DNA from: Deltaproteobacteria bacterium
Lineage (GTDB): Bacteria; Desulfobacterota; Desulfobacteria; Desulfobacterales; JAFDMD01
DNA: 64,000 bases
Reading direction: 5' to 3'
NCBI GenBank assembly: GCA_019306065.1
Contig: JAFDMF010000008.1
Location: 26,430 to 90,429 of the forward strand
The stretch's first letter is position 1. Every line of letters begins with the position of its first letter. The notes under the pieces were generated by a model. It was not told the origin of the DNA. It did no database searches and saw nothing but the letters and a program-made list of their open reading frames with translations. Made by a program: the position numbers and the translations under genes. This document shows positions 10,085-25,896 of this stretch, one piece after another.

Positions 10085-13000
10085 ATGGAGATTTCAAGAC
10101 GTAAATTTTTAGGAGCCATAGGAGCTTCCGCCGTAGGAAGCGTTTTGCCCTCCTCTTTAAAAGCCGACGATACTTATATTCCCGCAAAAGATAAGTTGAA
10201 AGGCGCGGAAAAAATCTTTACAGTCTGCCCCTTTTGCGCGGTAGGCTGCGGAATGATCGCATACGGTAAAAACGGAAAAATAATCGGCATTGAAGGAGAT
10301 GCAGATCATCCTATAAACGAAGGCGCGCTATGCTCTAAAGGAGGCGCTCTGCTTGATCTTGTAAACAGCGAAAAACGTCTTAAAAAAGTTCTTTACCGGG
10401 CTCCGAAAAGCTTAAAATGGGAAGAAAAATCGTGGGAATGGGCAACTTCGCAGATTGCCCGAAGAATCAAAAAAACAAGAGACGCCACATTTTTACAAAT
10501 CGAAGACGGCAAAACAGTTAACCGAACTCAAGGAATAGCATCTATAGGAGGAGCGGCTTTAGACAACGAAGAATGCTATCTACTTTCCAAATTTATGCGC
10601 TCTATCGGAATTGCATATCTTGAACATCAAGCTCGTATCTGACACAGCTCCACAGTCGCCAGTTTAGCGGCAACATTCGGACGCGGAGCAATGACAAACC
10701 ATTGGATAGACATTAAAAATGCAGACGTAATAATGATATGCGGCGCAAATCCGGCAGATAACCATCCGATAGCGGCAAAATGGATAAATAAAGCCCGCGA
10801 AAACGGCGCGCTTGTTATAAGCGTAGATCCCCGATATACAAGAACATCCTCCTTATCGGATATCTACCTTAAAATCCGAAGCGGAACGGATATAGCCTTT
10901 GCAGGAGGCATAATCAATTATGCTCTTGCCAACAACTTAATTCAAAAAGAATACGTTATAAATTACACAAACGCATCCTTTATCATAAAAGAAGGCATAA
11001 ACTTTAACAACGGACTCTTTTCGGGATACAATCCGCAAACATCCTCTTATGATAAATCCGGCTGGCAGTATGAACTTGACGAAAAACAAAACCCCAAAAA
11101 AGACACTGCCCTCACCCATCCGCGCTGCGTTTATCAATTAATGAAAAAACATTATCAAAGATACGATGCAGATACCGTATGCAACATCACAGGCTCTCCG
11201 AAAGAGGATTATATAAAAGTCTGCAAAACATACACATCCACTTACAAGCCGAACAAAGTAGCCACTTGGCTTTATGCTATGGGAAGCACCCAGCATACGC
11301 ATGGCGTGCAAAACATACGCTCTTATGCCATACTTCAGCTTCTGCTCGGCAACATAGGGCTTGCAGGCGGCGGAATCAACGCTTTAAGAGGCGAATCCAA
11401 CGTTCAGGGTTCAACGGATATGGCTCTGCTTTTTCACATTCTACCCGGCTACTTAAAATCTCCGCAAAAAACGGATCAGACCATTGACGATTATCTTAAA
11501 AATACAACCCCTGTTACAAACGACCCCAAATCTGCAAATTGGCGGGGAAATTATCCCAAATACATAATCTCTCTTTTAAAAGCATGGTATCAGGAAAATG
11601 CGAGTTCCGATAATCAATACTGCTATCAATACCTGCCCAAAAGAAGCGAAAATTATTCTTACATATCCCTTTTCGAAGCAATGTATGCAGATAAAATAAA
11701 AGGATTATTCTGTTTCGGACAAAACCCTGCGGTAAGCGGCCCCAATCTTACAAAAGAAAGAGACGCGCTTGCTAAACTGGACTGGCTTGTAGCCATAGAC
11801 TTATGGGAAACGGAAACCGCTCAATTCTGGAAAAGACCGGGAGTTAATTCCGAAAACATAAACACCGAAATATTTCTACTTCCGGCATGTTCTTCGGTTG
11901 AAAAAGAAGGAAGCATTACAAACAGCGGACGCTGGTCTCAATGGCGTTATAAAGCCTCCGAGCCGTCCGGCGATTCCAAATCCGATCTTTGGATTATAAA
12001 CGCCCTCTACAAAGCGGTTAATAACGAATATAAAAAAGAAGGGGTTTTTCCTGAACCCATTACAAAACTACACTGGGATTACGGAGAGGACGAACCGGAC
12101 GTTCATAAAGTTGCAAAAGAGATAAACGGTTATTTTACTCAAGATACCGTTATCGGAGATAAATCCTTTAAAAAAGGAAATCAGATTCCATCATTTGCTC
12201 TGCTGACAGACGACGGCTCTACATGTTCCGGCAACTGGCTCTATTGCAACTCATATACAGGGCCCGATAAAAAAGATAACAAAACAGCTCGCAGAATAAA
12301 AAAAGACGCTTCAAATAACATAGGCCTCTTCCCCGAATGGGCGTGGCGCTGGCCTCTTAATCGAAGCATTATTTATAACAGAGCTTCGGTAGATTTAAAC
12401 GGCAATCCTTGGGATAGCAAACGCTGGGTTATAAAATGGACAGGAGACATTACAAAATGGAAAGGAGGAGATGTTCCTGACGGGGGCTGGGCTCCCCAAG
12501 ACAAACTCCCCTTTATTATGAAACCGGACGGAGTAGGACATATATGGGCGCCCAATCTGGCAGACGGTCCCCTGCCCGAACATTACGAGCCTTTGGAAAG
12601 CCCGGTTAAAAACCTGCTCTCTACCCAACAAAACAACCCTGCCATAAAACTATGGCATAAAGACGCTCCCGAAAAAAATAAAGTAGGCGAAAGCAAACGA
12701 TACCCTATAGTATGCACAACATACAGAGTCGGCGAGCACTGGCAGGCGGGAGCTATGACAAGAAACATACCCTTACTTGCCGAACTTGCCCCGAACATAT
12801 TTGCAGAATTAAGCGCCGAGCTTGCCCAATTAAAAGGAATCAAAAACGGAAACATAGTAACAATAGAAACCGCAAGAGGAAAAATAGAAGCTTTTGCTTT
12901 AGTAACCGGCAGATTCAAACCCTTTACAATCCAAAACAGACTCATACATCAAATAGGAGTTATTTGGCAGTTCGGATATGCCGGCATAGCTACGGGAGCA

Positions 13001-13090
13001 AGCGCAAACATATTAACCTCTCATGTAGGAGACGCAAATACAATGATTCCTGAATTTAAAGCTTTTCTTTGCGATATAAACAGAATTTAA
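10085..13090 (+). CDS. fdhA: Formate dehydrogenase catalytic (alpha) subunit, molybdo/tungstopterin, selenocysteine-containing, Tat-exported
   Basis: Tracked ORFs 10085..10642 and 10691..13090 are in the same frame, joined by TGA 10640-10642 in the context EHQARI-U-HSSTVASLAATFGRGAMTNHW (classic FdhA/FdnG Sec site). N-terminal SRRKFLG twin-arginine signal and CPFCAVGC 4Fe-4S motif. Confidence 0.93.
10640..10642 (+). other. In-frame UGA recoded as selenocysteine
   Basis: Conserved Sec position of formate dehydrogenases. Flanking residues match the family consensus. Confidence 0.88.
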
Positions 13091-15561: not shown

Positions 15562-16440
15562 ATGAAAAAATATATATATAAATTTTTATTAATAATAACT
15601 TTATTTACGCTTATAATATTTTCCATAACCGGCTGCACAACAATAAAAGCGGTTAACACAATAAAAGCCGGAGAAATTCAGCTTGCAAATAACATAGAAC
15701 GGGAAATATCGGTTGAAAAAAGCGCCCACGCTCTAATAATTAAAACCCATATAAACGAATCGGATAAAGAATATAATTTTATTCTTGATACCGGAGCCCT
15801 CACGTCAATTAGCAAAAAGGTTGCAAAAGAAATTGGCGTAGATAAAGGAATTAAAATCATCGGAAAAGACAGCGCAGGCAATAAAAAGAATATATCTTTG
15901 GTTCAATTAGATAGCATTGCCGTTGAAGATATTAAAGTAAAACAATGCGCTGCCGCTATAATTGACTTATCCGAAATTGATCCAAATATAGACGGAATTT
16001 TAGGATCCAATTTTTTAAGATTTTTTAAAGTAACAATTGACTATCAAACTCAAAAAGTAATTTTCTCAAATAACAATAATCCAACCGAAATTTACGAAAA
16101 TACACTTCAAATACCTTTTCAACAGGAATTTAAATACGGATATGCTCCGGTTATAACCTGTTCTATAGAGGATACAATATCCGCAAAATGTATAATCGAC
16201 ACAGGCGCATCTTATTTGGCGGGCATACCTCTTTCAATAATGAAAAAAACAAAAGCTTTTAAAAACGGCAATGTAATAGAAGCAAAAGGAAACATGAGCG
16301 GCGGAGCATTCGGAACGGATAAAAAAAGTTTTATATTGCTTGCAGATAAATTAAATATAGGCGGTTTTGTTATAACCGGCGCTCCTTTATTCTCCAATAA
16401 TACAGAAGATGAAAAAGCAATACATTTAAAAACGATTTAG
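15562..16440 (+). CDS. Lipoprotein with two retropepsin-like aspartyl protease domains (upstream part of a frameshifted protease-PDZ gene)
   Basis: Lipobox ...ITGC. Two D-T-G active-site motifs (ILDTGAL, IIDTGAS). Confidence 0.75.
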   Translation: MKKYIYKFLLIITLFTLIIFSITGCTTIKAVNTIKAGEIQLANNIEREISVEKSAHALIIKTHINESDKEYNFILDTGALTSISKKVAKEIGVDKGIKIIGKDSAGNKKNISLVQLDSIAVEDIKVKQCAAAIIDLSEIDPNIDGILGSNFLRFFKVTIDYQTQKVIFSNNNNPTEIYENTLQIPFQQEFKYGYAPVITCSIEDTISAKCIIDTGASYLAGIPLSIMKKTKAFKNGNVIEAKGNMSGGAFGTDKKSFILLADKLNIGGFVITGAPLFSNNTEDEKAIHLKTI

Positions 16441-16700
16441 ATTCTTTTGGAATAGCCTTTAATAAGCTTGAAGGTAAAACCATTGTTATGGGAATATTAC
16501 CCGACTCCGCAGCAGATAACGGGCAAATTAAAATAGGAGATGAGGTTGTAAAAATAAACTCAATTAAAACAGAAGAGTTATCACTAATAGATATAGTTAA
16601 TATATTGCGAAACAACACCGAACTTAATTTAAAATATTTAAGCGATAATCAACTTAAAAATATAACCCTTAAAAAAGAAAAGCTTTTTTCGGGTCAATAA
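16413..16700 (+). CDS. PDZ domain segment (downstream part of the frameshifted protease-PDZ gene)
   Basis: The frame is open from 16413 (KSNTFKNDLDSFGIAFNKLEGKTIVMGILPDSAADNGQIKIGDEVVKIN...). The PDZ fold therefore begins upstream of the tracked ATG 16488 and overlaps the end of 15562..16440. Confidence 0.65.
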   Translation, partial: KSNTFKNDLDSFGIAFNKLEGKTIVMGILPDSAADNGQIKIGDEVVKINSIKTEELSLIDIVNILRNNTELNLKYLSDNQLKNITLKKEKLFSGQ

Positions 16701-16794
16701 ATATAAACCGATAGAAATTTTAAAATGCGGCTGCCTCGTTTACATTATAATAGCGATAATCATAAATTATTAAAAAACTATACAGGAGGAAATT

Positions 16795-16965
16795 ATGAAA
16801 GATACAGATGTAATTGCTTATGAGCAAACAGAGTTTGAAGGAATAAAAGAAAAAAATATAAAAGCTCTTCATAAACTTATAGATCCCGAAGAAACGAAAA
16901 AAGATATAGCAGGACGTCAAGCAGGAGGAGCAACCATAGCTATTTCTTATGCTTTTGCATTTTAA
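16795..16965 (+). CDS. Candidate RiPP precursor peptide (56 aa), absent from the ORF track
   Basis: AGGAGGA at 16784-16790, 4 nt before the ATG. Peptide: MKDTDVIAYEQTEFEGIKEKNIKALHKLIDPEETKKDIAGRQAGG-ATIAISYAFAF. Sits directly upstream of the YcaO and radical-SAM genes. Confidence 0.6.
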   Translation: MKDTDVIAYEQTEFEGIKEKNIKALHKLIDPEETKKDIAGRQAGGATIAISYAFAF

Positions 16966-17020
16966 TTTCGTTTTTTCATAACATCTTATAATTAAAAATA
17001 ACTATAATGTAATGAGGTTC

Positions 17021-17061
17021 GGTTGTAACTTCGGATAATATTAATTTCCGAAGTTACAACC
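17021..17061 (+). terminator. Perfect 15-bp stem hairpin between the precursor ORF and the YcaO gene (partial terminator/attenuator candidate)
   Basis: ggttgtaacttcgga (17021-17035), 11-nt loop, tccgaagttacaacc (17047-17061), followed by ...aaaaattttt. Confidence 0.55.
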
Positions 17062-17138
17062 AATCAAAAATTTTTGAAACAATATTAATATTGTTTACTC
17101 ATGGAATCTATTAAAACAACTTATGGAACTATTTTACT

Positions 17139-18953
17139 ATGCTTGAAAACTATAAAGTAGCGTCTCCGGAAAAAACAATTAACAATATAAGAAATATTTT
17201 ATTTGACTATGAAATATTTACAATCGAAAGTTGGATAAGAGATGAGTTTTTACCGAAATCGGTCAGAATAGAAACAATTGATTTGCCAATAGGCACTAAC
17301 GGAAAAGGTATAAATGAAAAATATGCGTTAGCTTCCGCTTATGCGGAATTTATGGAACGTATTCAAAATTTAATTCTGCTTGACGGGCAGTTTAGCGGAA
17401 TAAAAAAGGATATTGCTATTAGGCACACTGATTATATTGATTTTGATTATAATAAATTCAAACAAGAAAATCAGGATATATTAAAAGAGTTAATTTTTTT
17501 TAAAGATATATCTGAGATTGATTCGATTGTAACTGGATTTTCTAATAAACTATATTCATACCCCTTTTTAAATATTAAAACCGGAAAAACGGAATTTTTG
17601 CCGAAGCTTTTTATGCGAATGTCTGTCGGTTCTAATGGTATGTGTGCAGGAAATTCTCCGGCAGAAGCTTTAATTCAAGGTATTTGTGAAATTTTTGAGC
17701 GTTATGCCTTAAAAAAAATTTATAAAACTTCTTATGTTTCTCTACCTTCGGTTCCGGACTCTTATCTTAAAAGATTAACACAATGGAAATACTTTAAGTT
17801 TTTCAGATCAAAAGGATATGAGATTTATGTAAAAGATTGTTCTTTCGGCGGAAAAATACCGGTTGCAGGAGTATTAATAAAAAAAGGAGATAAGGCGTTA
17901 TTTAATTTAGGCTCTTCTCCGAGTTTTTCAATTGCTATAGAAAGATGTATTGACGAGCTTATGCAGGGTGTATTTTACGGAGAGTTAGATAATAGATTAC
18001 AGCCTATTACAACATTAGATCAAGAAATGCCGAATAGAACTTTTTCTACAAAAGAAAAACGAATCGATTTTCAGTATTATACTCAACTGTCATGCGGACA
18101 AGCTATTATTCCGCCATCTGTTTTTGATAATTCGGAACAATTCAATCCTACTTATCTTTTTGAAGCAACAGAAGTTACAAGTAACAAATGCTTAAAAAGT
18201 TTAATTGATATAGTAATTAAATTGGGCTTTACGCCTTATATAAGAGATGTTTCATTTTTAGAATTTTGTGCATACCATGTATATATACCCGGCATGTCCG
18301 AAATAATGCAGCTTAATTGCGATAGAATAAAACTGTTTCATTATGATATTCCAAAAGCAACCGAAATATTTTATAATATAAATTCCGCCGGTAATGAAGA
18401 AATAAATTTTTTAATCAATATAATAAAGGAATTAAATGATAATCCGATTGTCCAAAAGGAGAATATATTAAAGTTTATTTATAACCTTAATTTTAAACAA
18501 GAGGTGAGTTTAAGCGGTATTGAGCCAGAAAATTTATTACCCATTCTTTTTTATAAAATCAAAGATTATAAAGCGGCTTATGATACATTGGAAAAATATC
18601 TTAAAAATAAACTCGGCATTGATAACTACTACAATCCCCCCAAGTATTCCGAAAATCATTTTTGCTTACTAAAATTTTTCTTTTATTTAAAAGAAGGAGA
18701 ACAGCTTAATAATGCAAAAAAGAAGGTAAGCGCCCAATATAATGAATCAATAGTAAATGAAATTTTTGAATTATTAAATAAACCCAATTTTTTATCCGAA
18801 TATTTGGATATACCTAATTGCGGCGATTGTAATAACTGTAAATATAAAAAAGTATGCTGCTTTGAAAACCTTGCAACGTTGAAAAAACAATTAAAAAATA
18901 AAATGGAAAAATATACTTTTGACCAGTCTCATTTAAAAAATATTATAAAATAG
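17139..18953 (+). CDS. YcaO-family ATP-dependent peptide backbone-modifying enzyme with a C-terminal Cys-rich extension
   Basis: GTNGKGINEKYALASAYAEFMERIQN and GSNGMCAGNSPAEALIQGICEIFERY are YcaO signatures. The C-terminal tail carries CGDCNNCKYKKVCC (nt 18819-18860). Confidence 0.85.
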   Translation: MLENYKVASPEKTINNIRNILFDYEIFTIESWIRDEFLPKSVRIETIDLPIGTNGKGINEKYALASAYAEFMERIQNLILLDGQFSGIKKDIAIRHTDYIDFDYNKFKQENQDILKELIFFKDISEIDSIVTGFSNKLYSYPFLNIKTGKTEFLPKLFMRMSVGSNGMCAGNSPAEALIQGICEIFERYALKKIYKTSYVSLPSVPDSYLKRLTQWKYFKFFRSKGYEIYVKDCSFGGKIPVAGVLIKKGDKALFNLGSSPSFSIAIERCIDELMQGVFYGELDNRLQPITTLDQEMPNRTFSTKEKRIDFQYYTQLSCGQAIIPPSVFDNSEQFNPTYLFEATEVTSNKCLKSLIDIVIKLGFTPYIRDVSFLEFCAYHVYIPGMSEIMQLNCDRIKLFHYDIPKATEIFYNINSAGNEEINFLINIIKELNDNPIVQKENILKFIYNLNFKQEVSLSGIEPENLLPILFYKIKDYKAAYDTLEKYLKNKLGIDNYYNPPKYSENHFCLLKFFFYLKEGEQLNNAKKKVSAQYNESIVNEIFELLNKPNFLSEYLDIPNCGDCNNCKYKKVCCFENLATLKKQLKNKMEKYTFDQSHLKNIIK

Positions 18954-19033
18954 CATATTCCACATAAAATAACCTGCATAAAATCGAAAAATAAGACTAA
19001 CAAAGCAAACCTATTGATTAACTGAAATAGAAA

Positions 19034-20950
19034 ATGAAAATTTTAGATAAAGTATTATCAAACGCAGACGGTTTATTAATTATTCCGCCATTTGGTTTTT
19101 TAAATATACCGAATTTAAGCATTCATTTACTTAAAGATTATGCAAAAAAAGCCGGATACAATTTTGACATATTATATTTAAACCTATTATTAGCAAATGA
19201 AATCGGCGAATATGATTATTTATACTTATCAAAATTTTCTAACAAATTTACTGCCGAAAGATTGTTTGCAAGAGTTGCTTATAATGATTTGGTTTGTCAA
19301 AATAAAGGTAATAATGATTTGGTATCGTTTCAAAATCATATATATGAAAAATTAAAAAACGAAGATATTAAATATGAATTTGTTGATACAAATAAAATAA
19401 TTGAATTTGAAAGCAAAATTGATAAATGGATAGATAATATTATAAATAAAATTTCGGAATATAACTATAAAATTGTAGGATGCACCACTACCTTTGAGCA
19501 AACCTCCGCTTCCATAGCCTTTTTAAATGCAATAAAAAAGAAAAATAACAACATAATAACAATACTTGGCGGAGCTAATTGCGAAGGGGAAATGGCAGAG
19601 GGAATTTTTCAATTATCTTCTTATATTGATTATATATTTTCCGGAGAAAGCGAAATAACCTTTTTAGAATTTTTAAAAAATTTTTATAACGAAAAGCTTC
19701 CTAATCAAAAAATAATAAAAGGGCTTCCGTTAAAAGACCTCGATGAATTACCTGCCCTTGATTATTCCGAATATTTTCGACAACTACAAATTTTTATTCC
19801 AAAAGCAGAATTTAAAAAAAATAATCCTATAATGCTGCCGTATGAAACAAATCGAGGATGTTGGAAAGGAGAAAAACAGAAATGTTTATTTTGCGGCTTA
19901 AACGGAGAAAATATTAAATTCAGATATAAATCCCATAATATAGCGCTTAATGAATTAAAAATTCTTTTAAAAAAGAACCCGATAAGACGCGTATTTATGA
20001 TCGGGAATATAATGCCTAATCAGTATTTTGAATCCTTATTACCGAATTTGGCTGATAATCTGCCGGATTTAAAAATATTTTCCGAAGTAAGATCCAATTT
20101 ATCTTTGGAAAAGTTAATATTAGTAAAAAAAGCAGGATTTACAAGACTTCAGGCAGGCATAGAATCTTTATCTACAGGGCTGTTAAAAAAAATGAGAAAA
20201 GGAGTTTCGGCAGTTCAAAATATTCGATTTTTAAAACATGCAAAAATATTAAATATATCTGTTGATTGGAACATGTTATATGCTTTTCCTAATGACTCCG
20301 AAAAAGATTATGCGGATATGTATAAAATTCTGCCCTTCATTTACCATTTAATACCTCCTGTATCTCAAACCCCTTTTGTAATACAAAGATTTAGTCCTTA
20401 TTTCGACTTTCCCGATAAGTTTAATATAAAAAATGTCATTCCTTTCCCTGTATATAAAGAATTTATACCTTCATCGGTTAATATTAACAAAACAGCTTAT
20501 AATTTTTTAGGGGAATTTAATACTGCTTGGAATAAAGAAACTACTCATTATTGGAAAACACTTGAAACAAACAATATATTAAAGTCAGACAATATTATTA
20601 GTAAAGTATTTAACGAAGTAACAGCTTGGCAAAAAGCTTGGGCAGATAAAGAACCGCCGAAACTTGAATTAAAATCAATAGGCGATAACCGATATATGCT
20701 TATTGACACCCGTAACATATCCGAAAATAAAGATATTCGGATAATAGATTTAAAAAAGGCTATAGCCGCTACAATTGATTTTTCCAAAACTTCAAAAGAA
20801 AAAAATCTATTTAAAAATGAAACGGAATGGGCAATTAAACGAAAACTGATTTTAAAAGTAGATAGATCATTTATCTCTATAGTTACTACTAACATTGAAA
20901 CTTTTAAGCAATTACAATGTGAATTGAACAATTTTATAAAAAACGATTAA
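19034..20950 (+). CDS. B12-binding-domain radical SAM enzyme (RiPP-maturation C-methyltransferase-like, rSAM_ocin_1 type)
   Basis: N-terminal LLIIPPFGFLNIPNLSIHLLKDYAKKAGYNFDILYLN... Cluster motif ETNRGCWKGEKQKCLFCGLNG (Cx7CxxC variant typical of this family). Confidence 0.85.
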   Translation: MKILDKVLSNADGLLIIPPFGFLNIPNLSIHLLKDYAKKAGYNFDILYLNLLLANEIGEYDYLYLSKFSNKFTAERLFARVAYNDLVCQNKGNNDLVSFQNHIYEKLKNEDIKYEFVDTNKIIEFESKIDKWIDNIINKISEYNYKIVGCTTTFEQTSASIAFLNAIKKKNNNIITILGGANCEGEMAEGIFQLSSYIDYIFSGESEITFLEFLKNFYNEKLPNQKIIKGLPLKDLDELPALDYSEYFRQLQIFIPKAEFKKNNPIMLPYETNRGCWKGEKQKCLFCGLNGENIKFRYKSHNIALNELKILLKKNPIRRVFMIGNIMPNQYFESLLPNLADNLPDLKIFSEVRSNLSLEKLILVKKAGFTRLQAGIESLSTGLLKKMRKGVSAVQNIRFLKHAKILNISVDWNMLYAFPNDSEKDYADMYKILPFIYHLIPPVSQTPFVIQRFSPYFDFPDKFNIKNVIPFPVYKEFIPSSVNINKTAYNFLGEFNTAWNKETTHYWKTLETNNILKSDNIISKVFNEVTAWQKAWADKEPPKLELKSIGDNRYMLIDTRNISENKDIRIIDLKKAIAATIDFSKTSKEKNLFKNETEWAIKRKLILKVDRSFISIVTTNIETFKQLQCELNNFIKND

Positions 20951-20952
20951 TT

Positions 20953-21633
20953 ATGGAATATGCCTATATAATAATTATGCTTCTTACAGGCCTATCCCTT
21001 CTAATTCATGAAATCGGACATTTGGTTGCCGCAAAATTTTTTGATATAAAAGTCAAACTACTTTCAATCGGAATAGGATCTCTTCTAACCTGTTATAATT
21101 ATAAAGATATAAAAGTTAAAATCTGCGCTTTTCCCGTAATGTTTTATCTAACCCTTAACTATAATCCCAATTCATATTTCAATATACCATTATATAAAAG
21201 AGTATTATTTTCTATTTGCGGAAGCTTGGCAAACCTACTTTTTTTAATACTCATATATATATTTTGTATTGCAATAAACAAAAATTTTTTAATAAGCGAA
21301 TATTATAAAATCCATTCTTTAATACATGACATCAATCATATACCCGGAATACTTTATTTAATAAACGGTTATGCAAAATTAATTTATCAAAACTTTTACA
21401 GTTGTATATCTTTTCTTTTTATCATTAATGTAATAATAACGGTAGTTAATCTATTTCCTATTATTGAACATGACGGCGGTAAAATCATATTCAACATATT
21501 AAATCAAAAAAAGCCGAATATACTAAAGTATTATGTGGCATTTTCAAAAATATTAAAATTTTCTATCGGAAGCCTTGTAATCTATTTTACTACAATCGAT
21601 ATTTGGCGGCTTTTTATAAAACTTATTAAATAA
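20953..21633 (+). CDS. Site-2-protease-like M50 family intramembrane metalloprotease
   Basis: HEIGH at residues 19-23 inside the first TM helix. Second motif NLFPIIEHDGG. Polytopic membrane protein. Starts 2 nt after the rSAM stop. Confidence 0.75.
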   Translation: MEYAYIIIMLLTGLSLLIHEIGHLVAAKFFDIKVKLLSIGIGSLLTCYNYKDIKVKICAFPVMFYLTLNYNPNSYFNIPLYKRVLFSICGSLANLLFLILIYIFCIAINKNFLISEYYKIHSLIHDINHIPGILYLINGYAKLIYQNFYSCISFLFIINVIITVVNLFPIIEHDGGKIIFNILNQKKPNILKYYVAFSKILKFSIGSLVIYFTTIDIWRLFIKLIK

Positions 21634-21651
21634 CTTTTTAGGAATACCCCT

Positions 21652-22854
21652 ATGAAATCGGTTTATAAAAGAAAGCTATCTCCTTATGAAAGATTTTTTC
21701 TCGCAAAAATAGACGATAAACAATTTTTCAGCAATCAAGGAATAATAGAAGGCGAGGGCGTTTTAGATAAAAAATTATGGGAAAAAGCGGTTGAAAAAGC
21801 TTCCGCTGCAAATCCGGGATCAAGAGTAACATTACGCGGAAAACTAATGACAAGCCAATGGGTTGATACTAAAAAAACGCCGAGAATAAGAGAAATTGAA
21901 GATACAAAATGGGACGGTTTAAATTCTAACAACATACCGTATCTTCCGGATAAATTATGCCCCCTAAACGGTCCGGTATGTGAGGTTATATTAATTTACG
22001 GAAAACAAAAACGAGTTATTATAAATTCTTTACATTCCGTTATGGACGGAAAAGCCACTATAGCATGGGCATTAGATATTTTTCGAGCATTACGAGGAGA
22101 ACAGCCTATCGGTTCCAATTCAAAATTAACGGATATAGAATTATCCAAAACTTTTACCAATAAAAGCTTATCTGCAATATCAAATAAATATATTGCCCCT
22201 ACCGGAAAACCGGATACTTATGAAAAAGGGGCAATATGGATTAGAAAAACCGTAAAAGGATTTATAAATAAAGCTATACCTCGAATTAGTATTATACTTA
22301 CAAAAGAGGCATCAAAACTTTCAAACGGTAAATTTTGTATTATGATACCTGTAGATTTAAGACGTAGAAACAAAAAAATAACTTCAGTCGGCAATCTAAC
22401 CGGCAACCTATTTATTGAAATTGATAAAAATTCTACAGTTAATGACATACAAAAAAAAATTATCTATCAATTAAAAAATTATTACGAATGTATGCTTCCC
22501 AAACATATTAATATTGTTAAATACATTCCGATTAAACTTTTACATTCAAGCTTAAAAAAAGTAGCCAAGCAAAAAAATAAAACAGGTTTATTTACATATT
22601 CCGGCATTATAACCCATCTCGGCAGACTTCATGTTAATGCCTTTAGCGGAGGAGGATTTATAGGCAAAACATGGTATAGCTGCAATTCAATGTCCGGCGA
22701 TGATTTGCCGCCTCTATTTATATCAATTTCCGAGACCGAATCATTTAATAATCATACAAATATTCTTATAGGTATATCAAAACCTTTGGCTTCAAAAGGC
22801 AGATTGGAAAAAATTGTTAATTCTATTATTAATGAAATAGATGTATTCCCATAA
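21652..22854 (+). CDS. Stand-alone condensation-domain-like acyltransferase (HxxxDG)
   Basis: LSPYERFFL start, NPGSRVTLRG, and catalytic-type motif SLHSVMDGKATIAWALDIFRAL. About 400 aa, the size of a single C/PapA5-like domain. Confidence 0.6.
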   Translation: MKSVYKRKLSPYERFFLAKIDDKQFFSNQGIIEGEGVLDKKLWEKAVEKASAANPGSRVTLRGKLMTSQWVDTKKTPRIREIEDTKWDGLNSNNIPYLPDKLCPLNGPVCEVILIYGKQKRVIINSLHSVMDGKATIAWALDIFRALRGEQPIGSNSKLTDIELSKTFTNKSLSAISNKYIAPTGKPDTYEKGAIWIRKTVKGFINKAIPRISIILTKEASKLSNGKFCIMIPVDLRRRNKKITSVGNLTGNLFIEIDKNSTVNDIQKKIIYQLKNYYECMLPKHINIVKYIPIKLLHSSLKKVAKQKNKTGLFTYSGIITHLGRLHVNAFSGGGFIGKTWYSCNSMSGDDLPPLFISISETESFNNHTNILIGISKPLASKGRLEKIVNSIINEIDVFP

Positions 22855-22946
22855 TATAATAAAAACGAAACTAATAATAAAAGTAAAAAATTCAACATTT
22901 ATCTCAAAAAATATAAACTCTATAATGTTATGACGCTGTATCTTGA

Positions 22947-23747
22947 ATGACAAATAAAAACATAAAAAAAGCCGTAGAAGCGCTATCAATCAGTTATAAT
23001 TACAAAAGCTTCAACGCCGTAAAAAATATATCCTTTTATATAAATCAAGGAGAATTCTTTGTTATTGCAGGACCAAACGGATCAGGTAAAACAACTCTGG
23101 TTAAAATACTGGCAGGTATAATAAAAGCAAGCATAGGAGAAATCCGAATAACCGAAACTCCAATATCTGCATTTTCCGCAAAACAACTTGCCCGCTTTAT
23201 AGCCTTTGTTCCTCAGGAAATACCCATTTCCTTTCCGTTTAAAGCGGAAGAAATCGTTCTTATGGGAAGATACCCACATACAGGAATACTCGGAATAGAA
23301 AGCGCAGATGATATAAAAATAGCAAAAGAGGCTATGCGTTTTACAAGTACCGAAAAATTTGCCAAAAGAAGACTTGATCAGCTAAGCGGCGGAGAAAGAC
23401 AACGGCTTTTTATAGCAAGAGCAATAACCCAGCAGCCTAAAATAATAATATTAGATGAACCTACGGCATCTCTTGATCCCGCGCATCAAATCAGATTAAT
23501 GGAACTTTTAAAAAACTTAAAAACCAAACAAAATACAACCATAATAATGGTATCCCACGATCTTAATCTTGCCTCCATGTATGCGGAAAAAATATTATTA
23601 ATAAAAAACGGAGAAAAAAAAATCGTAGGCGTCCCTTCTCAAGCCCTTACAAAAGAGTTGCTTCAAGAAATCTACGAATGCGAAATATTTGTAGGAAAAA
23701 GCCCGGCAGGAAACTTTCCCGCAATACATCTTTTGCCTACCCGATAA
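22947..23747 (+). CDS. ABC transporter ATP-binding protein (iron-chelate/cobalamin uptake FepC/BtuD type), no adjacent permease
   Basis: Walker A GPNGSGKTT, signature LSGGERQR, Walker B IIILDEP. Confidence 0.9.
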   Translation: MTNKNIKKAVEALSISYNYKSFNAVKNISFYINQGEFFVIAGPNGSGKTTLVKILAGIIKASIGEIRITETPISAFSAKQLARFIAFVPQEIPISFPFKAEEIVLMGRYPHTGILGIESADDIKIAKEAMRFTSTEKFAKRRLDQLSGGERQRLFIARAITQQPKIIILDEPTASLDPAHQIRLMELLKNLKTKQNTTIIMVSHDLNLASMYAEKILLIKNGEKKIVGVPSQALTKELLQEIYECEIFVGKSPAGNFPAIHLLPTR

Positions 23748-23852: not shown

Positions 23853-24854
23853 ATGAATAAATTTACTTTTATAGACTTATTCGCGGGAATCGGAGGCTTT
23901 CATATCGCCGCAAAATCATTAGGCGGCAAATGCATCTTTGCCAGCGAAATCGATGCCCAAGCAAAAAAAGCCTATGAAGCGAATTACGGAATAAAAGTAA
24001 GCGGAGATATAACAAAAATAAAAGCGCAGGATATTCCCGATCATGATATGCTTTACGCGGGTTTCCCTTGTCAGCCGTTTAGTATTATAGGCAACAGATT
24101 AGGCTTTGAAGACATTAGGGGGACTCTTTTTTTTGAAATTATAAGAATATTAAAAAAAAAAACCCCGCCGTCATTTATTTTAGAAAACGTTAAACAGTTA
24201 GCGACTCATAATAAAAAACAAACTATTAATAAAATTATAGAATCGTTGGAATCACTCGGATATAAAGTTGTCTATCGGGTTCTTAACGCTCTTAATTACG
24301 GGCTTCCTCAAAAAAGAGAAAGGGTTGTCATAGTCGGTTTTATAGATAAATCCGCAGAGTTTAAATGGCCTCCCCCCCCCCCCAAATACATTCCTCTTTC
24401 CGAAATAATCGAAAATAAAGCGGACAAAAAACATTACGCCAGCGATAAAATTTGCGAAAAAAGACTCAGTAAACACAAAAGCGAATACAAATTGGCTATT
24501 TGGCATGAAAATAAAGGAGGCAACGTTACAAGCTATCCTTACTCATGCGCGTTGCGCGCGGGAGCCTCATATAATTATTTACTCGTCAATGGAGAGCGTA
24601 GACTCTCGCCGCGCGAAATGCTAAGATTGCAGGGTTTTCCCGAAACATTTAAAATTGTCTGTTCGGATTCCCAAACCAGAAAACAGGTCGGCAACGCCGT
24701 TCCCGTAACGATGATTAAAGCCGTAATTAAAGAGGTTATACATGCGACGTCCAAGATTGAGAGACGAAAAAGAAAGAACAGGAAGCGAGTTATATCCGCT
24801 CGGAGAATTTCCGAAGAAAGTAATATACGCAATCAGCCGCAGACTCATATATAA
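23853..24854 (+). CDS. dcm: DNA (cytosine-5)-methyltransferase
   Basis: Motif I FIDLFAGIGGF, motif IV GFPCQPFS, motif VI ENV, QRER, motif X QVGNAVPV. The basic tail after motif X overlaps the next gene. Confidence 0.93.
   Translation: MNKFTFIDLFAGIGGFHIAAKSLGGKCIFASEIDAQAKKAYEANYGIKVSGDITKIKAQDIPDHDMLYAGFPCQPFSIIGNRLGFEDIRGTLFFEIIRILKKKTPPSFILENVKQLATHNKKQTINKIIESLESLGYKVVYRVLNALNYGLPQKRERVVIVGFIDKSAEFKWPPPPPKYIPLSEIIENKADKKHYASDKICEKRLSKHKSEYKLAIWHENKGGNVTSYPYSCALRAGASYNYLLVNGERRLSPREMLRLQGFPETFKIVCSDSQTRKQVGNAVPVTMIKAVIKEVIHATSKIERRKRKNRKRVISARRISEESNIRNQPQTHI
24372..24383 (+). repeat. C12 homopolymer inside the methyltransferase coding sequence (encodes part of WPPPPPK)
   Basis: Read directly: ggcct-cccccccccccc-aaatac. 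An A11 run also occurs at 24153-24163 in the same gene. Confidence 0.95.
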
Positions 24855-25479
24855 TTTTGCTATAGGCAAGCCGGACATCAGCGGCGAAGATTGGGGCAAT
24901 ATTTTTGCAAAGTCTATAAACGGCGAACATCTATCTCGTCCTTTGGGGTTAGCCGACGTAGTTTTTAAAAAACAGGCATGGTCAGTTAAAAGCGTTAAAA
25001 GCGCCAAACCTCATTCCTGTAAAAAAATCAGAATAATATCCGGTAGAAATTCTCCCGATTATTCTTATGGCATTAGCGCCCCCCGCAAAAATCCGGAAGA
25101 AACCGGAAAAGCGATAATTAATATATGGAACGAACGCGTTAATATCGCTTTGGATAAATACGATTATATTAGAACCGTAATGCTTATAAGGAACATGAAA
25201 ACGCTTGAGTTTACGCTTTTTGAAACCGAAACTAATAAATTTGTTCCCGGCGAATACGAGTGGAAGATAAATAAAAAAAACAATTTGGAAGGAATCAATA
25301 AAGTTAATAAAGAGCATAAGTTTACATGGCAGCCGAGCGGAGGGCAGTTTACAATTATATACTCTTATATACCGGCTTCGGCTGTTCGATTTCGTATAAA
25401 AAAACCGCTCCTTTTAGATTTTGAAAAAATTATAGAAAAGATCGGTTTTCAAAAAAATTGGGTTACAATTAAAGAGTAG
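24742..25479 (+). CDS. Putative Type II restriction endonuclease partner of the cytosine methylase
   Basis: Located between dcm and vsr. Possible PD-(D/E)xK-like element GLADVV...WSVKSVK. No family assignment is possible by eye. Overlaps the dcm 3' end by 113 nt. Confidence 0.5.
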   Translation: MRRPRLRDEKERTGSELYPLGEFPKKVIYAISRRLIYNFAIGKPDISGEDWGNIFAKSINGEHLSRPLGLADVVFKKQAWSVKSVKSAKPHSCKKIRIISGRNSPDYSYGISAPRKNPEETGKAIINIWNERVNIALDKYDYIRTVMLIRNMKTLEFTLFETETNKFVPGEYEWKINKKNNLEGINKVNKEHKFTWQPSGGQFTIIYSYIPASAVRFRIKKPLLLDFEKIIEKIGFQKNWVTIKE

Positions 25480-25485
25480 TAAATT

Positions 25486-25896
25486 ATGGACGTTTTTTCA
25501 AAAGCGGAACGCTCAAAAGTAATGAGAGCCGTAAAATCAAATAAAAACAAATCTACCGAATTAAAATTAATAGAGATTTTTCGGAAATATGAATTAAAAG
25601 GATGGAGACGAAATTATAAAGTATTCGGCAAACCCGATTTTGTTTTTCATAAATACAAAATTGCGGTTTTCGTTGACGGCTGTTTTTGGCATGGGCATGA
25701 CTGTAGAAACACAAAGCCCGCTTCCAACAAAGATTACTGGGATAAAAAAATTGATAGAAATATAGCGAGGGATAAAAAGGTAAATTCTCATCTGACAGAT
25801 TTAGGTTGGAAAGTCATAAGAATCTGGGAATGCGAATTAATAAAAAAGCCTTCAGATGCGGCGGATAAAATCAAAAAAACCGCCCATTCTTCATAG
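25486..25896 (+). CDS. vsr: Very-short-patch repair endonuclease
   Basis: RSKVMRAVKSNKNKSTELKL..., GKPDFVF, VFVDGCFWHGH and IRIWECE are canonical Vsr motifs. Confidence 0.93.
   Translation: MDVFSKAERSKVMRAVKSNKNKSTELKLIEIFRKYELKGWRRNYKVFGKPDFVFHKYKIAVFVDGCFWHGHDCRNTKPASNKDYWDKKIDRNIARDKKVNSHLTDLGWKVIRIWECELIKKPSDAADKIKKTAHSS

What the first reader, a model, noticed from the sequence alone, without database searches (positions are those of the whole stretch)
16784..22854. Compact RiPP-like biosynthetic cluster with an unusual enzyme set
Five co-directional, tightly spaced genes (gaps of 2-173 nt) follow a strong ribosome-binding site. They are a 56-aa peptide ORF, a YcaO enzyme, a B12-binding radical-SAM enzyme with the Cx7CxxC motif typical of RiPP C-methyltransferases, an S2P/M50 intramembrane metalloprotease (HEIGH plus NLFPIIEHDGG), and a stand-alone condensation-domain-like enzyme (HSVMDG). 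YcaO plus B12-rSAM chemistry is known from bottromycin biosynthesis and from McrA modification. I do not know of a described RiPP class that combines these two enzymes with an intramembrane M50 protease and an NRPS-type C domain. There is no E1-like/Ocin-ThiF partner, TfuA, lanthionine enzyme or dedicated ABC exporter. By eye the block is more AT-rich than the flanking fdh and trp genes, which suggests horizontal acquisition. Predicted product: a short hydrophobic peptide that is backbone-modified (azoline, thioamide or amidine), C-methylated and possibly N-acylated.
Basis: partly seen in the sequence, partly recalled or inferred. Interest (0 to 1): 0.86.

Follow-up and report, generated by a model that had tools for sequence, protein, structure and literature searches.

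The report
Undescribed YcaO-based peptide-modification gene cluster
This AT-rich block is a real operon for making a small modified peptide; it belongs to a rare gene-cluster family with no published description that I could find, and it pairs an E. coli-type YcaO enzyme with a membrane protease and a stand-alone NRPS-like enzyme.

Summary
GC is 28.8% against 36.1% for the rest of the window.

Family assignments:
- YcaO: Pfam hit, with the full two-domain fold of E. coli YcaO.
- TIGR03975 B12-radical-SAM C-methyltransferase: scores above the curated cut-off.
- M50 protease: confirmed.
- Last gene: no sequence-family hit, but a confident model with a condensation-domain fold.

The 56-aa ORF is a conserved precursor. 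Three divergent homologues exist. Two of them lie directly downstream of an aspartyl-protease–PDZ lipoprotein gene; the third has no context.

The recurring unit is Asp-protease-PDZ, precursor, YcaO, M50 and the C-fold enzyme. The rSAM is an add-on. It comes from a second recurring module (precursor, YcaO, TIGR03975 rSAM) found in other clusters.

One homologous core contains no Cys, Ser or Thr. Azoline formation therefore cannot be the conserved YcaO reaction.

A close relative carries only a decayed remnant of the cluster, with different flanking genes.

Verdict: this is a genuine RiPP-type cluster and a new variant of a known kind. Its chemistry is unknown.

The parts
15562..16700 (+). Retropepsin-like aspartyl protease plus PDZ lipoprotein gene. 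It is a conserved upstream member of the cluster family. Here it is split into two ORFs (15562-16440 and 16488-16700) by an 85-nt deletion at about 16412/16413.
   Evidence: Pfam gives Asp_protease_2 (4.6e-16) on the first ORF and PDZ on the second. tblastn with the intact 416-aa L092 homologue shows a frame switch and about 25 missing residues. The alignment with L007 shows the 85-nt gap. An intact homologue lies directly upstream of the precursor in L091/L092 and L097. The N-terminus carries a lipobox, ITGC.
16784..16789 (+). AGGAGG ribosome-binding site, 5 nt upstream of the precursor ATG.
   Evidence: Sequence read.
16795..16965 (+). Precursor peptide gene (56 aa). The leader carries KEKxxKALxKhhDP and ends in AGG. 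The predicted 11-aa hydrophobic core is ATIAISYAFAF.
   Evidence: phmmer matches the L091/L092 peptide at E = 5e-6 among about 12,000 ORFs. A two-sequence profile finds P0224 (E = 1.7e-6) and P0225 (E = 7.2e-6) among 1.84 billion proteins. P0225 again sits next to an Asp-protease-PDZ gene.
17021..17061 (+). Hairpin with a perfect 15-bp stem, between the precursor gene and ycaO. It is a likely attenuator or mRNA-stabilising element.
   Evidence: Inverted repeat I13. The fold of the 173-nt spacer gives -38.9 kcal/mol, z = -6.4, with 0 of 200 shuffles as stable. An analogous hairpin followed by a T-run lies after the L092 precursor.
17139..18953 (+). E. coli-type two-domain YcaO (604 aa). The ATP-binding motifs are intact and the C-terminus carries an invariant CxxCxxCx5C motif.
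   Evidence: PF02624 at 5.5e-39. NF040716 scores 152 bits against a cut-off of 700. The PDB sequence hit is E. coli YcaO 4q84, E = 8.7e-24. The AlphaFold model (pLDDT 91.2) matches 4q84-4q86 over its full length at TM 0.67-0.74. Invariant residues are listed. The Cys motif occurs in 104 of 117 homologues.
19034..20950 (+). B12-binding radical-SAM C-methyltransferase (638 aa) of the TIGR03975 family. It is the lineage-specific add-on in this cluster.
   Evidence: TIGR03975 scores 487 bits against a cut-off of 282, covering the full model. Cx7CxxC lies at residue 276. The gene is absent from L008-L010 and L091/L092. TIGR03975 rSAMs lie next to related YcaOs in L090, L096, L028 and L039.
20953..21633 (+). 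Small M50 (site-2-protease type) intramembrane metalloprotease (226 aa), with HEIGH and NLFPIIEHDGG and no PDZ domain.
   Evidence: PF02163 at 2.8e-22. The gene keeps the same position after ycaO in L008-L010 and L091/L092.
21652..22854 (+). Stand-alone condensation-fold enzyme (400 aa) with active-site motif LHSVMDG. The family consensus is HHAVMDG.
   Evidence: No Pfam, NCBIfam or PDB sequence hit. There are 99 homologues. H128 and D132 are invariant. The AlphaFold model has pLDDT 94.8. Foldseek matches AzeD 8s6l (E = 9.5e-19, TM 0.73) and many NRPS C/E/starter-C domains. The YcaO-linked copies form one clade in a neighbour-joining tree.

Best explanation
The block from 15562 to 22854 is an accessory, probably horizontally acquired operon for a ribosomally made, post-translationally modified peptide. 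It belongs to a small gene-cluster family for which I found no description.

Shown:
- A conserved 48-56-aa precursor family. The leader carries K-x-x-K-A-L-x-K-h-h-D/N-P, then about 15-18 residues later (A/N)GG. The core is a hydrophobic x-[TA]-I-[AG]-I-[AGS]-... segment.
- In its family this precursor lies downstream of an Asp-protease-PDZ lipoprotein gene. It lies upstream of an E. coli-type YcaO, a small M50 protease and a stand-alone condensation-fold enzyme.
- This window's version has gained a TIGR03975 B12-rSAM C-methyltransferase between ycaO and the M50 gene.
- This window's version has lost an intact Asp-protease-PDZ gene.

Inferred mechanism:
1. The hairpin after the precursor gene lets precursor mRNA exceed enzyme mRNA.
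2. The YcaO recognises the leader and uses ATP to activate a backbone amide in the conserved [TA]-I-[AG]-I segment. One family core has no Cys, Ser or Thr, and there is no E1/ThiF partner. The conserved outcome is therefore not an azoline. It is more likely a thioamide or an amidine-type product. My rough split is thioamide 0.35, amidine or other N-nucleophile 0.25, azoline at Thr/Ser of this particular core 0.15, and something else 0.25.
3. The rSAM C-methylates unactivated carbon(s) of the core.
4. The M50 protease cuts at the GG/core boundary at the membrane, releasing a short hydrophobic peptide.
5. The C-fold enzyme modifies the peptide. The most likely reaction is N- or O-acylation from an acyl-CoA or acyl-ACP, at about 0.4. 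An AzeD-like non-acyl reaction is the alternative.
6. In relatives the extracytoplasmic Asp-protease-PDZ trims the C-terminal VP[KR]K tail. The window's peptide lacks this tail.
For: Domain assignments.

Precursor conservation:
- Window against L091/L092, E = 5e-6.
- The database search returns only three clusters: the window's own peptide, the L092-type peptide and a near-identical variant of it.
- The profile search finds P0224 and P0225 among 1.84 billion proteins.
- P0225 was found by sequence alone and again lies next to an Asp-protease-PDZ gene.

Gene-set recurrence:
- L091/L092: AspP-PDZ, precursor, YcaO, M50, C-fold.
- L008-L010: YcaO, M50, C-fold.
- L007: remnant of the same cluster at about 89% DNA identity.

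Other points:
- The YcaO-linked C-fold proteins are monophyletic within a 99-member family.
- The YcaO + TIGR03975 module recurs with peptides that carry the same leader and T-I-A-G motifs, in L090 and L096.
- Other members of this YcaO clade sit in clearly RiPP-type clusters with Nif11 precursors, rSAM/SPASM enzymes, BtrH_N and M16.
- The YcaO ATP-site motifs are identical to those of E. coli YcaO.
- The P0224 core NWAIGIAIRINFVVPK has no Cys, Ser or Thr.
- The hairpin has z = -6.4, and L092 has an analogue.
- M50 proteases are known leader or scaffold peptidases in epipeptides and pearlins (PMC10885120).
Against: - There are no experimental data, so no modification is shown.
- The family is tiny. 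It has about four divergent precursors and three or four independent loci, so co-occurrence statistics are weak.
- The exact five-gene set occurs only here.
- The Asp-protease-PDZ gene is disrupted here.
- The nearest relative (L007) has lost the precursor, ycaO and half of the rSAM, and its C-fold gene is fragmented. The cluster is therefore dispensable and may be decaying.
- Most C-fold homologues (35-43% identical) lie beside MMPL transporters and CapK-like ligases, with no YcaO. The substrate could be a lipid rather than the peptide.
- No acyl-donor gene (A domain, carrier protein or ligase) is in the operon.
- No sulfur-transfer partner is present for thioamidation.
- No recognisable RRE was found.
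Confidence: 0.7

Rival explanations
1. The cluster is a decaying, non-functional remnant of a horizontally acquired island. The ORFs happen to be still open, but no product is made.
For: An 85-nt deletion breaks the conserved Asp-protease-PDZ gene. The ~89%-identical copy in L007 has lost 16701-19947 (precursor, ycaO and the N-terminal half of the rSAM), and its C-fold gene is split into three ORFs. The window's peptide lacks the C-terminal VP[KR]K tail present in all three homologues.
Against: All five genes of the finding are full length with intact catalytic motifs. The RBS and the post-precursor hairpin are intact. Loss of the tail together with loss of a tail-processing protease could be a coherent functional change rather than decay. 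The 85-nt gap could also be a MAG assembly error.
Confidence: 0.2
2. The M50 protease and the C-fold enzyme do not act on the peptide. They act on envelope lipids or membrane proteins, as the MMPL-linked paralogues probably do. They merely travel with the YcaO cassette.
For: Most C-fold homologues lie as 2-3 tandem paralogues beside MMPL transporters and CapK_C-type ligases, with no YcaO or small peptide gene (L001, L003, L005). Identity to those copies (up to 43%) is nearly as high as to the YcaO-linked copies (44-46%). No acyl-donor gene lies in the operon.
Against: The YcaO-M50-C-fold order is kept in lineages whose YcaOs are only 41-50% identical. The genes are tightly spaced (2 and 18 nt here). 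The YcaO-linked C-fold proteins form their own clade. No MMPL or CapK gene lies in the 15.4-23.8 kb block, and the rest of the window was not scanned for them.
Confidence: 0.12
3. It is a conventional azoline (TOMM/LAP-like) pathway, in which the YcaO cyclodehydrates Thr2 or Ser6 of the core.
For: The window core ATIAISYAFAF contains Thr and Ser. The rSAM-linked relatives also have T-I-A. YcaO enzymes are best known for azoline formation (PMC8442711).
Against: TIGR03604 (SagD-type) scores 41.7 bits against a cut-off of 219. There is no E1-like/Ocin-ThiF partner and no dehydrogenase. The C-terminus is not proline-rich (sequence), and that feature marks azoline-forming YcaOs (PMC8442711). The homologous cores have Ala where the window has Thr, and P0224 has no Cys, Ser or Thr at all.
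Confidence: 0.1
4. The YcaO and rSAM modify a large protein, as E. coli YcaO/RimO act on S12 or the archaeal enzymes act on McrA. On this reading the small ORF is not their substrate.
For: The best NCBIfam hit is the S12 accessory-factor model, and the fold is that of E. coli YcaO. JGI annotates the homologues that way.
Against: The score is far below the equivalog cut-off (152 against 700). The YcaO is accessory: it is missing in L007 and sits in an AT-rich island. A conserved small ORF with a shared leader and core motif precedes related YcaOs in five different cluster architectures. The neighbours are RiPP-type enzymes.
Confidence: 0.06

Closest known systems
E. coli YcaO (PDB 4q84-4q86; NF040716, S12 methylthiotransferase accessory factor)
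   Same: Both have the same two-domain architecture over the full length (Foldseek TM 0.67-0.74, about 620 aligned columns). The ATP/Mg-binding motifs are identical. Neither has a fused or adjacent E1/ThiF or TfuA partner.
   Different: Identity is only about 20%. The protein scores 152 bits against the 700-bit equivalog cut-off. It is encoded in an accessory operon behind a conserved precursor peptide. It also carries an invariant C-terminal CxxCxxCx5C motif. I did not test whether E. coli YcaO has that motif.
Bottromycin biosynthesis (partner-independent YcaOs plus class B rSAM C-methyltransferases)
   Same: Both combine a stand-alone YcaO with B12-dependent radical-SAM C-methylation of a short hydrophobic peptide. 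Partner-independent amidine-type chemistry is possible in both (PMC8442711).
   Different: Bottromycin uses a follower peptide, two YcaOs, three rSAM methyltransferases, an alpha/beta hydrolase, a P450 and other enzymes. Here there is an N-terminal leader, one YcaO, one TIGR03975 rSAM, an M50 protease and a C-fold enzyme. None of the bottromycin-specific genes is present.
Proteusins / Nif11-NHLP clusters with TIGR03975 rSAM methyltransferases (polytheonamide type)
   Same: The rSAM is a full-length TIGR03975 member. More distant long-form YcaOs sit with TIGR03975 enzymes and Nif11-type precursors that have A/G/I/V-rich cores (L028, L039). The leader ends in GG.
   Different: The window precursor has no Nif11 or NHLP domain and is only 56 aa long. 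There is no epimerase, no LanM-like dehydratase and no C39/PCAT exporter.
Epipeptide (EpeX/YydF) and pearlin (TglG/TmoG) pathways that use M50 proteases
   Same: In both, a membrane-embedded M50 metalloprotease is encoded in a RiPP operon and releases the product from the leader or scaffold (PMC10885120).
   Different: Those pathways use an rSAM epimerase or PEARL/LanB-like enzymes, not a YcaO, a B12-rSAM methyltransferase or a C-fold enzyme. I did not compare the window M50 with EpeP or TglG at sequence level.
Stand-alone condensation-family proteins (AzeD 'C_standalone' clade; PapA/WS-DGAT-type acyltransferases; starter C domains)
   Same: The protein has the two-lobed C-domain fold with the catalytic His and Asp of HHxxxDG retained. 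The first His is replaced (Leu here, Pro in AzeD). It is encoded as a free-standing protein (bioRxiv 10.64898/2026.07.17.738954).
   Different: Identity to AzeD is 12%, and Pfam Condensation gives no hit. It has no NRPS or PKS neighbours. The activity is unknown: AzeD is a dehydratase, not an acyltransferase. Most of the protein's own relatives lie next to MMPL transporters.

Membership tests
YcaO superfamily (PF02624 / TIGR00702) | A YcaO ATP-grasp-like domain scoring above the curated threshold, with the ATP/Mg-binding Ser/Glu/Arg motifs | tested here: met
   PF02624 scores 134.8 bits (cut-off 25.7). TIGR00702 scores 81.4 bits (cut-off 75.65). The motifs ALASAYAEFMER and SNGMCAGN...EIFERY align with E. 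coli YcaO and are invariant in A1.
Azoline-forming TOMM/LAP YcaO (SagD type, TIGR03604) | A score above the TIGR03604 cut-off, an E1-like/Ocin-ThiF partner (fused or adjacent), and a proline-rich C-terminus | tested here: not met
   The score is 41.7 bits against a cut-off of 219.25. No ThiF/E1 gene lies between 15.4 and 23.8 kb. The C-terminus ...FDQSHLKNIIK has no PxPxP. The feature definition comes from PMC8442711.
Thioamide-forming YcaO-TfuA systems (TIGR03266 / thioamitide type) | An adjacent TfuA gene, or membership of the McrA-glycine thioamidation YcaO equivalog | tested here: not met
   TIGR03266 scores 31.2 bits against a cut-off of 365. No TfuA appears in the locus or in related loci (Pfam lists). 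TfuA-independent thioamidation is not excluded.
E. coli YcaO equivalog (NF040716, S12 methylthiotransferase accessory factor) | A score above the equivalog cut-off | tested here: not met
   The score is 152.5 bits against a cut-off of 700. The overall fold is nevertheless shared.
TIGR03975 RiPP-maturation radical SAM C-methyltransferase | A full-length match above the trusted cut-off, a Cx7CxxC radical-SAM cluster motif and an N-terminal B12-binding region | tested here: met
   The score is 487.1 bits against a cut-off of 281.85, covering model positions 2-604 of 606. CWKGEKQKCLFC lies at residue 276. Pfam B12-binding scores 26.4 bits, below its own cut-off of 32.1. Methyltransferase activity was not tested.
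Peptidase family M50 (site-2 protease) | An HExxH motif and an NxxPxxxxDG motif within transmembrane segments, with a Pfam score above the cut-off | tested here: met
   PF02163 scores 79.6 bits (cut-off 27.2). HEIGH lies at residue 19 and NLFPIIEHDGG at residue 166, and hydrophobic segments cover both.
NRPS condensation-domain superfamily | A sequence match to the Pfam Condensation family (PF00668) | tested here: not met
   There is no Pfam hit even at E <= 10, and no NCBIfam or PDB sequence hit.
NRPS condensation-domain superfamily | The two-lobed CAT-like fold with the catalytic His/Asp of HHxxxDG at the lobe interface | tested here: met
   The model has pLDDT 94.8 and pTM 0.93. Foldseek gives 250 PDB matches at E <= 0.001, led by AzeD, the MokA C domain, TycB3 E, the SrfA-C C domain and the RzmA starter C domain. 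H128 and D132 are invariant in 51 homologues. The first His is Leu in the window protein.
Proteusin / Nif11-NHLP precursor family | The precursor matches the Nif11 (TIGR03798 / PF07862) or NHLP leader models | tested here: not met
   The 56-aa peptide has no Pfam or NCBIfam hit.
Bottromycin-type pathway | A follower peptide, two YcaOs, multiple rSAM methyltransferases and BotH/BotAH/P450 accessory genes | tested here: not met
   The locus has one YcaO, one rSAM and an N-terminal leader ending in GG. None of the accessory families is present.
The cluster family proposed here (AspP-PDZ, precursor, long YcaO, M50, C-fold) | A homologous precursor directly upstream of a long-form YcaO, followed by an M50 gene and a C-fold gene, with an Asp-protease-PDZ gene upstream | tested here: met
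   The order and the homology are shared with L091/L092 and partly with L008-L010 and L097. In the window the AspP-PDZ gene is present but disrupted, and an rSAM is inserted.

The most novel reading that the evidence does not exclude
The locus represents a new RiPP class. An E. coli-type two-domain YcaO with a conserved C-terminal Cys4 (possibly Fe-S or Zn) site acts without an E1/ThiF or TfuA partner on a hydrophobic core that needs no Cys, Ser or Thr. The product would be a thioamide, an amidine or a reaction not yet seen. The peptide is then released at the membrane by an M50 protease and tailored by a stand-alone condensation-fold enzyme that is recruited from an MMPL-linked lipid pathway. 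The result would be a short lipidated, signal-like peptide. This would give the first defined peptide substrates for the large, functionally unresolved E. coli-type YcaO family.
Probability: 0.35. Interest if true: 0.8.

Novelty: new variant of a known kind. Interest (0 to 1): 0.62.

Why it matters
YcaO enzymes are widespread, but most have no known function (PMC8442711). The E. coli-type long form in particular has no defined substrate chemistry; this rests on my own knowledge of the field.

This locus and its relatives place such YcaOs directly behind conserved small precursor peptides that share a leader motif and a short [TA]-I-[AG]-[IG] core motif. One of these cores has no Cys, Ser or Thr. 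That makes the reaction directly testable with a peptide of about 50 residues and one enzyme.

The locus also pairs RiPP enzymes with a free-standing NRPS-type fold, an intramembrane protease and a lipoprotein aspartyl protease. I found no description of this combination in six literature searches on YcaO/RiPP terms. The comparison of variants with and without the B12-rSAM offers a natural experiment on what that methyltransferase targets.

Practical value is limited by rarity. Only a few metagenomic instances exist, from anaerobic Desulfobacterota-like organisms. There are also signs that the cluster is dispensable.

Tried and rejected
- The metagenome-contig scan with the YcaO alignment failed with a tool error and still consumed the cap. 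Neighbourhood sampling therefore relied on 12 exact-protein look-ups and one genome scan.
- The genome-contig scan returned 79 loci. Only one (L011) exceeds 33% identity, and its neighbourhood showed no recognisable partner genes. None of the 79 has an M50 or C-fold neighbour at E <= 1e-3.
- The search for precursor homologues in the 5.8-billion-protein word-indexed database returned only the window peptide and the Smithellaceae one with a close variant. The exhaustive profile search added two more. A 1,849-aa repetitive protein (P0223) and P0226 were discarded as low-complexity AGG-repeat matches.
- Promoter and terminator consensus scans were uninformative in this AT-rich DNA (43 sites found, 50 expected).
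- The repeat search found no direct repeats, tRNA or integrase marking island borders.
- I tested whether the A-T protein of L096 contains a domain related to the C-fold enzyme. hhalign probability was 0.5%, so I rejected this.
- Six literature searches on YcaO/RiPP terms found no description of the gene combination or of a Cys-rich C-terminal YcaO domain.
- I considered a defence-system or R-M linkage with the adjacent Dcm/Vsr genes. I rejected it because those genes are absent from L007 and L092.

Full report
OBSERVATION

- 16795-16965, 56 aa
- 17139-18953, 604 aa
- 19034-20950, 638 aa
- 20953-21633, 226 aa
- 21652-22854, 400 aa

The gaps between them are 173, 80, 2 and 18 nt. AGGAGG lies at 16784-16789, five bases before the first ATG. 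The quoted motifs are all present: Cx7CxxC at rSAM residue 276, HEIGH and NLFPIIEHDGG in the M50 protein, and HSVMDG at residue 128 of the last protein.

The block is 28.8% GC and the rest of the window 36.1%. No other 6,071-nt stretch of the window falls below 33.7% (mean 36.0, sd 1.3). The flanks are a formate-dehydrogenase-type molybdopterin enzyme with its 4Fe-4S and NrfD subunits on the left. On the right lie an ABC ATPase, a Dcm/Vsr module and trpE/G/D.

WHAT THE GENES ARE

YcaO. The protein matches Pfam YcaO (E = 5.5e-39). Its best NCBIfam model is the E. coli S12 accessory-factor equivalog, but at 152 bits against a 700-bit cut-off. The SagD-type azoline model and the McrA thioamidation model score far below their cut-offs. 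The only solved relative by sequence is E. coli YcaO (E = 8.7e-24). An AlphaFold model (pLDDT 91.2) superposes on E. coli YcaO over its full length at TM 0.67-0.74. So this is the long, two-domain YcaO form. The ATP-site motifs are conserved.

rSAM. The protein is a full-length member of TIGR03975, the RiPP-maturation B12 radical-SAM C-methyltransferases (487 bits, cut-off 282).

M50. The protein passes Pfam M50.

Last protein. It has no Pfam, NCBIfam or PDB sequence hit, even at E = 10. It has 99 database homologues, with His128 and Asp132 invariant. A very confident model (pLDDT 94.8) matches the condensation-domain fold. The top hit is the stand-alone C-family dehydratase AzeD (E = 9.5e-19, TM 0.73). 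Dozens of NRPS C, E and starter-C domains follow.

IS THE SMALL ORF REAL?

Yes.
- The closest YcaO homologue with long contigs (P0110, Smithellaceae, seen on many contigs) is preceded by a 48-aa ORF. phmmer matches this ORF to the window peptide at E = 5e-6 among about 12,000 six-frame ORFs.
- A profile of the two peptides, searched exhaustively against 1.84 billion proteins, finds two further peptides. These are P0224 (52 aa, E = 1.7e-6) and P0225 (49 aa, E = 7.2e-6).
- All four share a leader, (K/Q)-(E/K)-K-x-h-x-(A/V)-L-x-K-h-h-(D/N)-P, then a spacer, then (A/N)GG. The core is hydrophobic:
  - window: ATIAISYAFAF
  - P0221: GWAIAIGIAGTFCVPKSK
  - P0224: (G)NWAIGIAIRINFVVPK
  - P0225: SWAIGIAFAFAVPRK
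- P0225 was found purely by sequence. It lies on a short contig directly downstream of an aspartyl-protease-PDZ gene. The Smithellaceae peptide has the same neighbour, and so does the window peptide.
- A hairpin with a perfect 15-bp stem follows the window precursor gene (17021-17061; z = -6.4). A comparable hairpin with a T-run follows the Smithellaceae one.

DO THE GENES CO-OCCUR?

Partly, and in an informative way.
- L091/L092 carry AspP-PDZ (416 aa), precursor, YcaO, M50 and C-fold.
- L008-L010 carry YcaO, M50 and C-fold. The contig ends before the precursor position.
- Neither of these has the rSAM.
- The YcaOs of these loci are only 41-50% identical to each other and to the window's. The shared order is therefore not a single recent island.
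- Within the 99-member C-fold family, the YcaO-linked copies form one clade in a neighbour-joining tree.
- The remaining family members are up to 43% identical. They lie as two or three tandem paralogues beside MMPL transporters and CapK-like ligases in Spirochaetota and Bacillota, with no YcaO.

Separately, YcaOs 37-43% identical to the window's are followed by TIGR03975 rSAMs in L090 and L096. In L090 the rSAM comes with a second B12-rSAM and an ATP-grasp enzyme. In L096 it comes with an adenylation/carrier-protein didomain, an M16 protease and a methyltransferase. The upstream peptides in both loci carry the same elements:
- L090: ...AFQRLTNPEDEILNPAGFPKQITIAGRHNIA
- L096...LEILDKPEERMDEEEKVTDSVDWTIAGGYSGKF

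Other members of the clade sit with Nif11 precursors and several rSAM/SPASM enzymes, BtrH_N and further aspartyl proteases. The window cluster is thus a hybrid of two recurring modules. The three rSAM-linked peptides have T-I-A, where the three rSAM-less ones have A-I-[AG]. That is suggestive, but the sample is too small to interpret.

STATE OF THE CLUSTER IN THIS LINEAGE

The conserved upstream AspP-PDZ gene is present at 15562-16700 but split. tblastn with the intact homologue shows a frame switch and about 25 missing residues. Alignment with the close relative L007 shows an 85-nt deletion at about 16412.

L007 comes from a Deltaproteobacteria MAG and is about 89% identical in DNA. It shares only 16244-16701 and 19947-22894 with the window. 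The precursor, ycaO and the first half of the rSAM are replaced there by about 1 kb of unrelated DNA. Its C-fold gene is in three pieces. Both of its flanks differ from those of the window. Together with the composition, this supports an accessory, mobile and dispensable cassette.

The window peptide is also the only family member without the C-terminal VP[KR]K tail. PDZ domains typically bind C-termini (established knowledge). I therefore suggest that the lipoprotein AspP-PDZ trims that tail outside the cell, and that the tail and the protease were lost together here. This is inference from a single case.

MECHANISM (INFERRED)

The YcaO most likely binds the conserved leader and ATP-activates a backbone amide in the [TA]-I-[AG]-I segment.

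Several facts argue against azoline formation as the conserved reaction:
- P0224 has no Cys, Ser or Thr.
- There is no E1/ThiF partner.
- The SagD-type model is not matched.
- The C-terminus is not proline-rich. That feature marks azoline-forming YcaOs (PMC8442711).

Thioamidation or amidine-type chemistry is more likely. No TfuA is present. The invariant C-terminal CxxCxxCx5C motif could be a metal or Fe-S site relevant to this. It occurs in 104 of 117 long-form homologues, but it was not tested.

The remaining steps are inferred as follows:
- The rSAM would C-methylate the core.
- The M50 protease would cut at the GG/core junction. Its RiPP precedents are EpeP, TglG and TmoG (PMC10885120).
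- The C-fold enzyme would tailor the peptide. Acylation is my best guess, given its MMPL-linked relatives and the A-T didomain in L096. The dehydratase activity of its best structural match warns against certainty (bioRxiv 10.64898/2026.07.17.738954).

COMPARISON AND NOVELTY

The defining features of the following families were tested and not met (see the membership table):
- TOMM/LAP
- YcaO-TfuA
- bottromycin
- proteusin

Epipeptide and pearlin pathways were compared only qualitatively (see Closest known systems).

Membership of the following families is met:
- the YcaO superfamily
- TIGR03975
- M50
- the condensation fold, but not the Pfam Condensation sequence family

Six literature searches on YcaO/RiPP terms found no description of this gene combination.

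I rate it a new variant of a known kind. It is a RiPP-type YcaO cluster with an undescribed precursor family and accessory set. Interest is 0.62. The family is rare and no chemistry is shown. It does, however, offer a direct experimental handle on E. coli-type YcaOs.

Noticed in passing
window 18819-18857 (YcaO residues 561-573); homologues P0101-P0219: Long-form (E. coli-type) YcaO homologues carry a C-terminal CxxCxxCx5C motif. It is invariant in the 21-sequence alignment and present in 104 of 117 full-length homologues. It may be a Zn or Fe-S site. I found no description of it in the literature search.
   Followed up: partly
window 10085-13090 (+), in-frame TGA at 10643-10645: The formate-dehydrogenase-type molybdopterin subunit is split by a single in-frame TGA in the context HQARI*HSS. 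This looks like a selenocysteine codon rather than a broken gene.
   Followed up: partly
window 22947-23747 (+): An orphan ABC ATPase of the heme/corrinoid/FecE importer type (PRK13548, 244 bits against a cut-off of 261). It has no adjacent permease or binding protein. It lies 93 nt downstream of a cluster that needs cobalamin. It is not conserved in L007 or L092.
   Followed up: no
window 23853-25896 (+): A Dcm-type C5 cytosine methylase, an overlapping 245-aa ORF with no family hit (possibly the cognate restriction enzyme) and a Vsr mismatch endonuclease. This is a likely R-M module sitting between the peptide cluster and trpEGD.
   Followed up: no
L001 5616-13523; L003 5690-13504; L005 5161-9194: Outside the YcaO-linked clade, the C-fold family occurs as 2-3 tandem paralogues. 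They lie beside an MMPL transporter and a CapK_C-type ligase in Spirochaetota and Bacillota MAGs. This is an uncharacterised envelope-lipid-like locus reminiscent of the PapA/MmpL pairs of mycobacteria.
   Followed up: no
L028 10013-16172; L039 6803-13880; L034, L050, L076, L087: More distant long-form YcaOs (25-30% identity) in Bacillota lie with Nif11-type precursors whose cores are A/G/I/V/S/T-rich (6 of 79 loci). In L028 and L039 there are two YcaOs in tandem plus a TIGR03975 rSAM. This is an apparently uncharacterised proteusin-like group.
   Followed up: partly
L094 6851-7723; L095 5854-7071 and 12282-13178; L091 6749-7999; L097 256-1491: Retropepsin-like aspartyl proteases (Asp_protease_2) recur next to this YcaO clade in four different cluster architectures. 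A literature search for YcaO with aspartyl protease found nothing. They may be an unrecognised type of RiPP peptidase.
   Followed up: partly
L007 7001-7702: In the close relative, a 233-aa ORF of unknown function occupies the place of the deleted precursor, ycaO and rSAM 5' segment.
   Followed up: no
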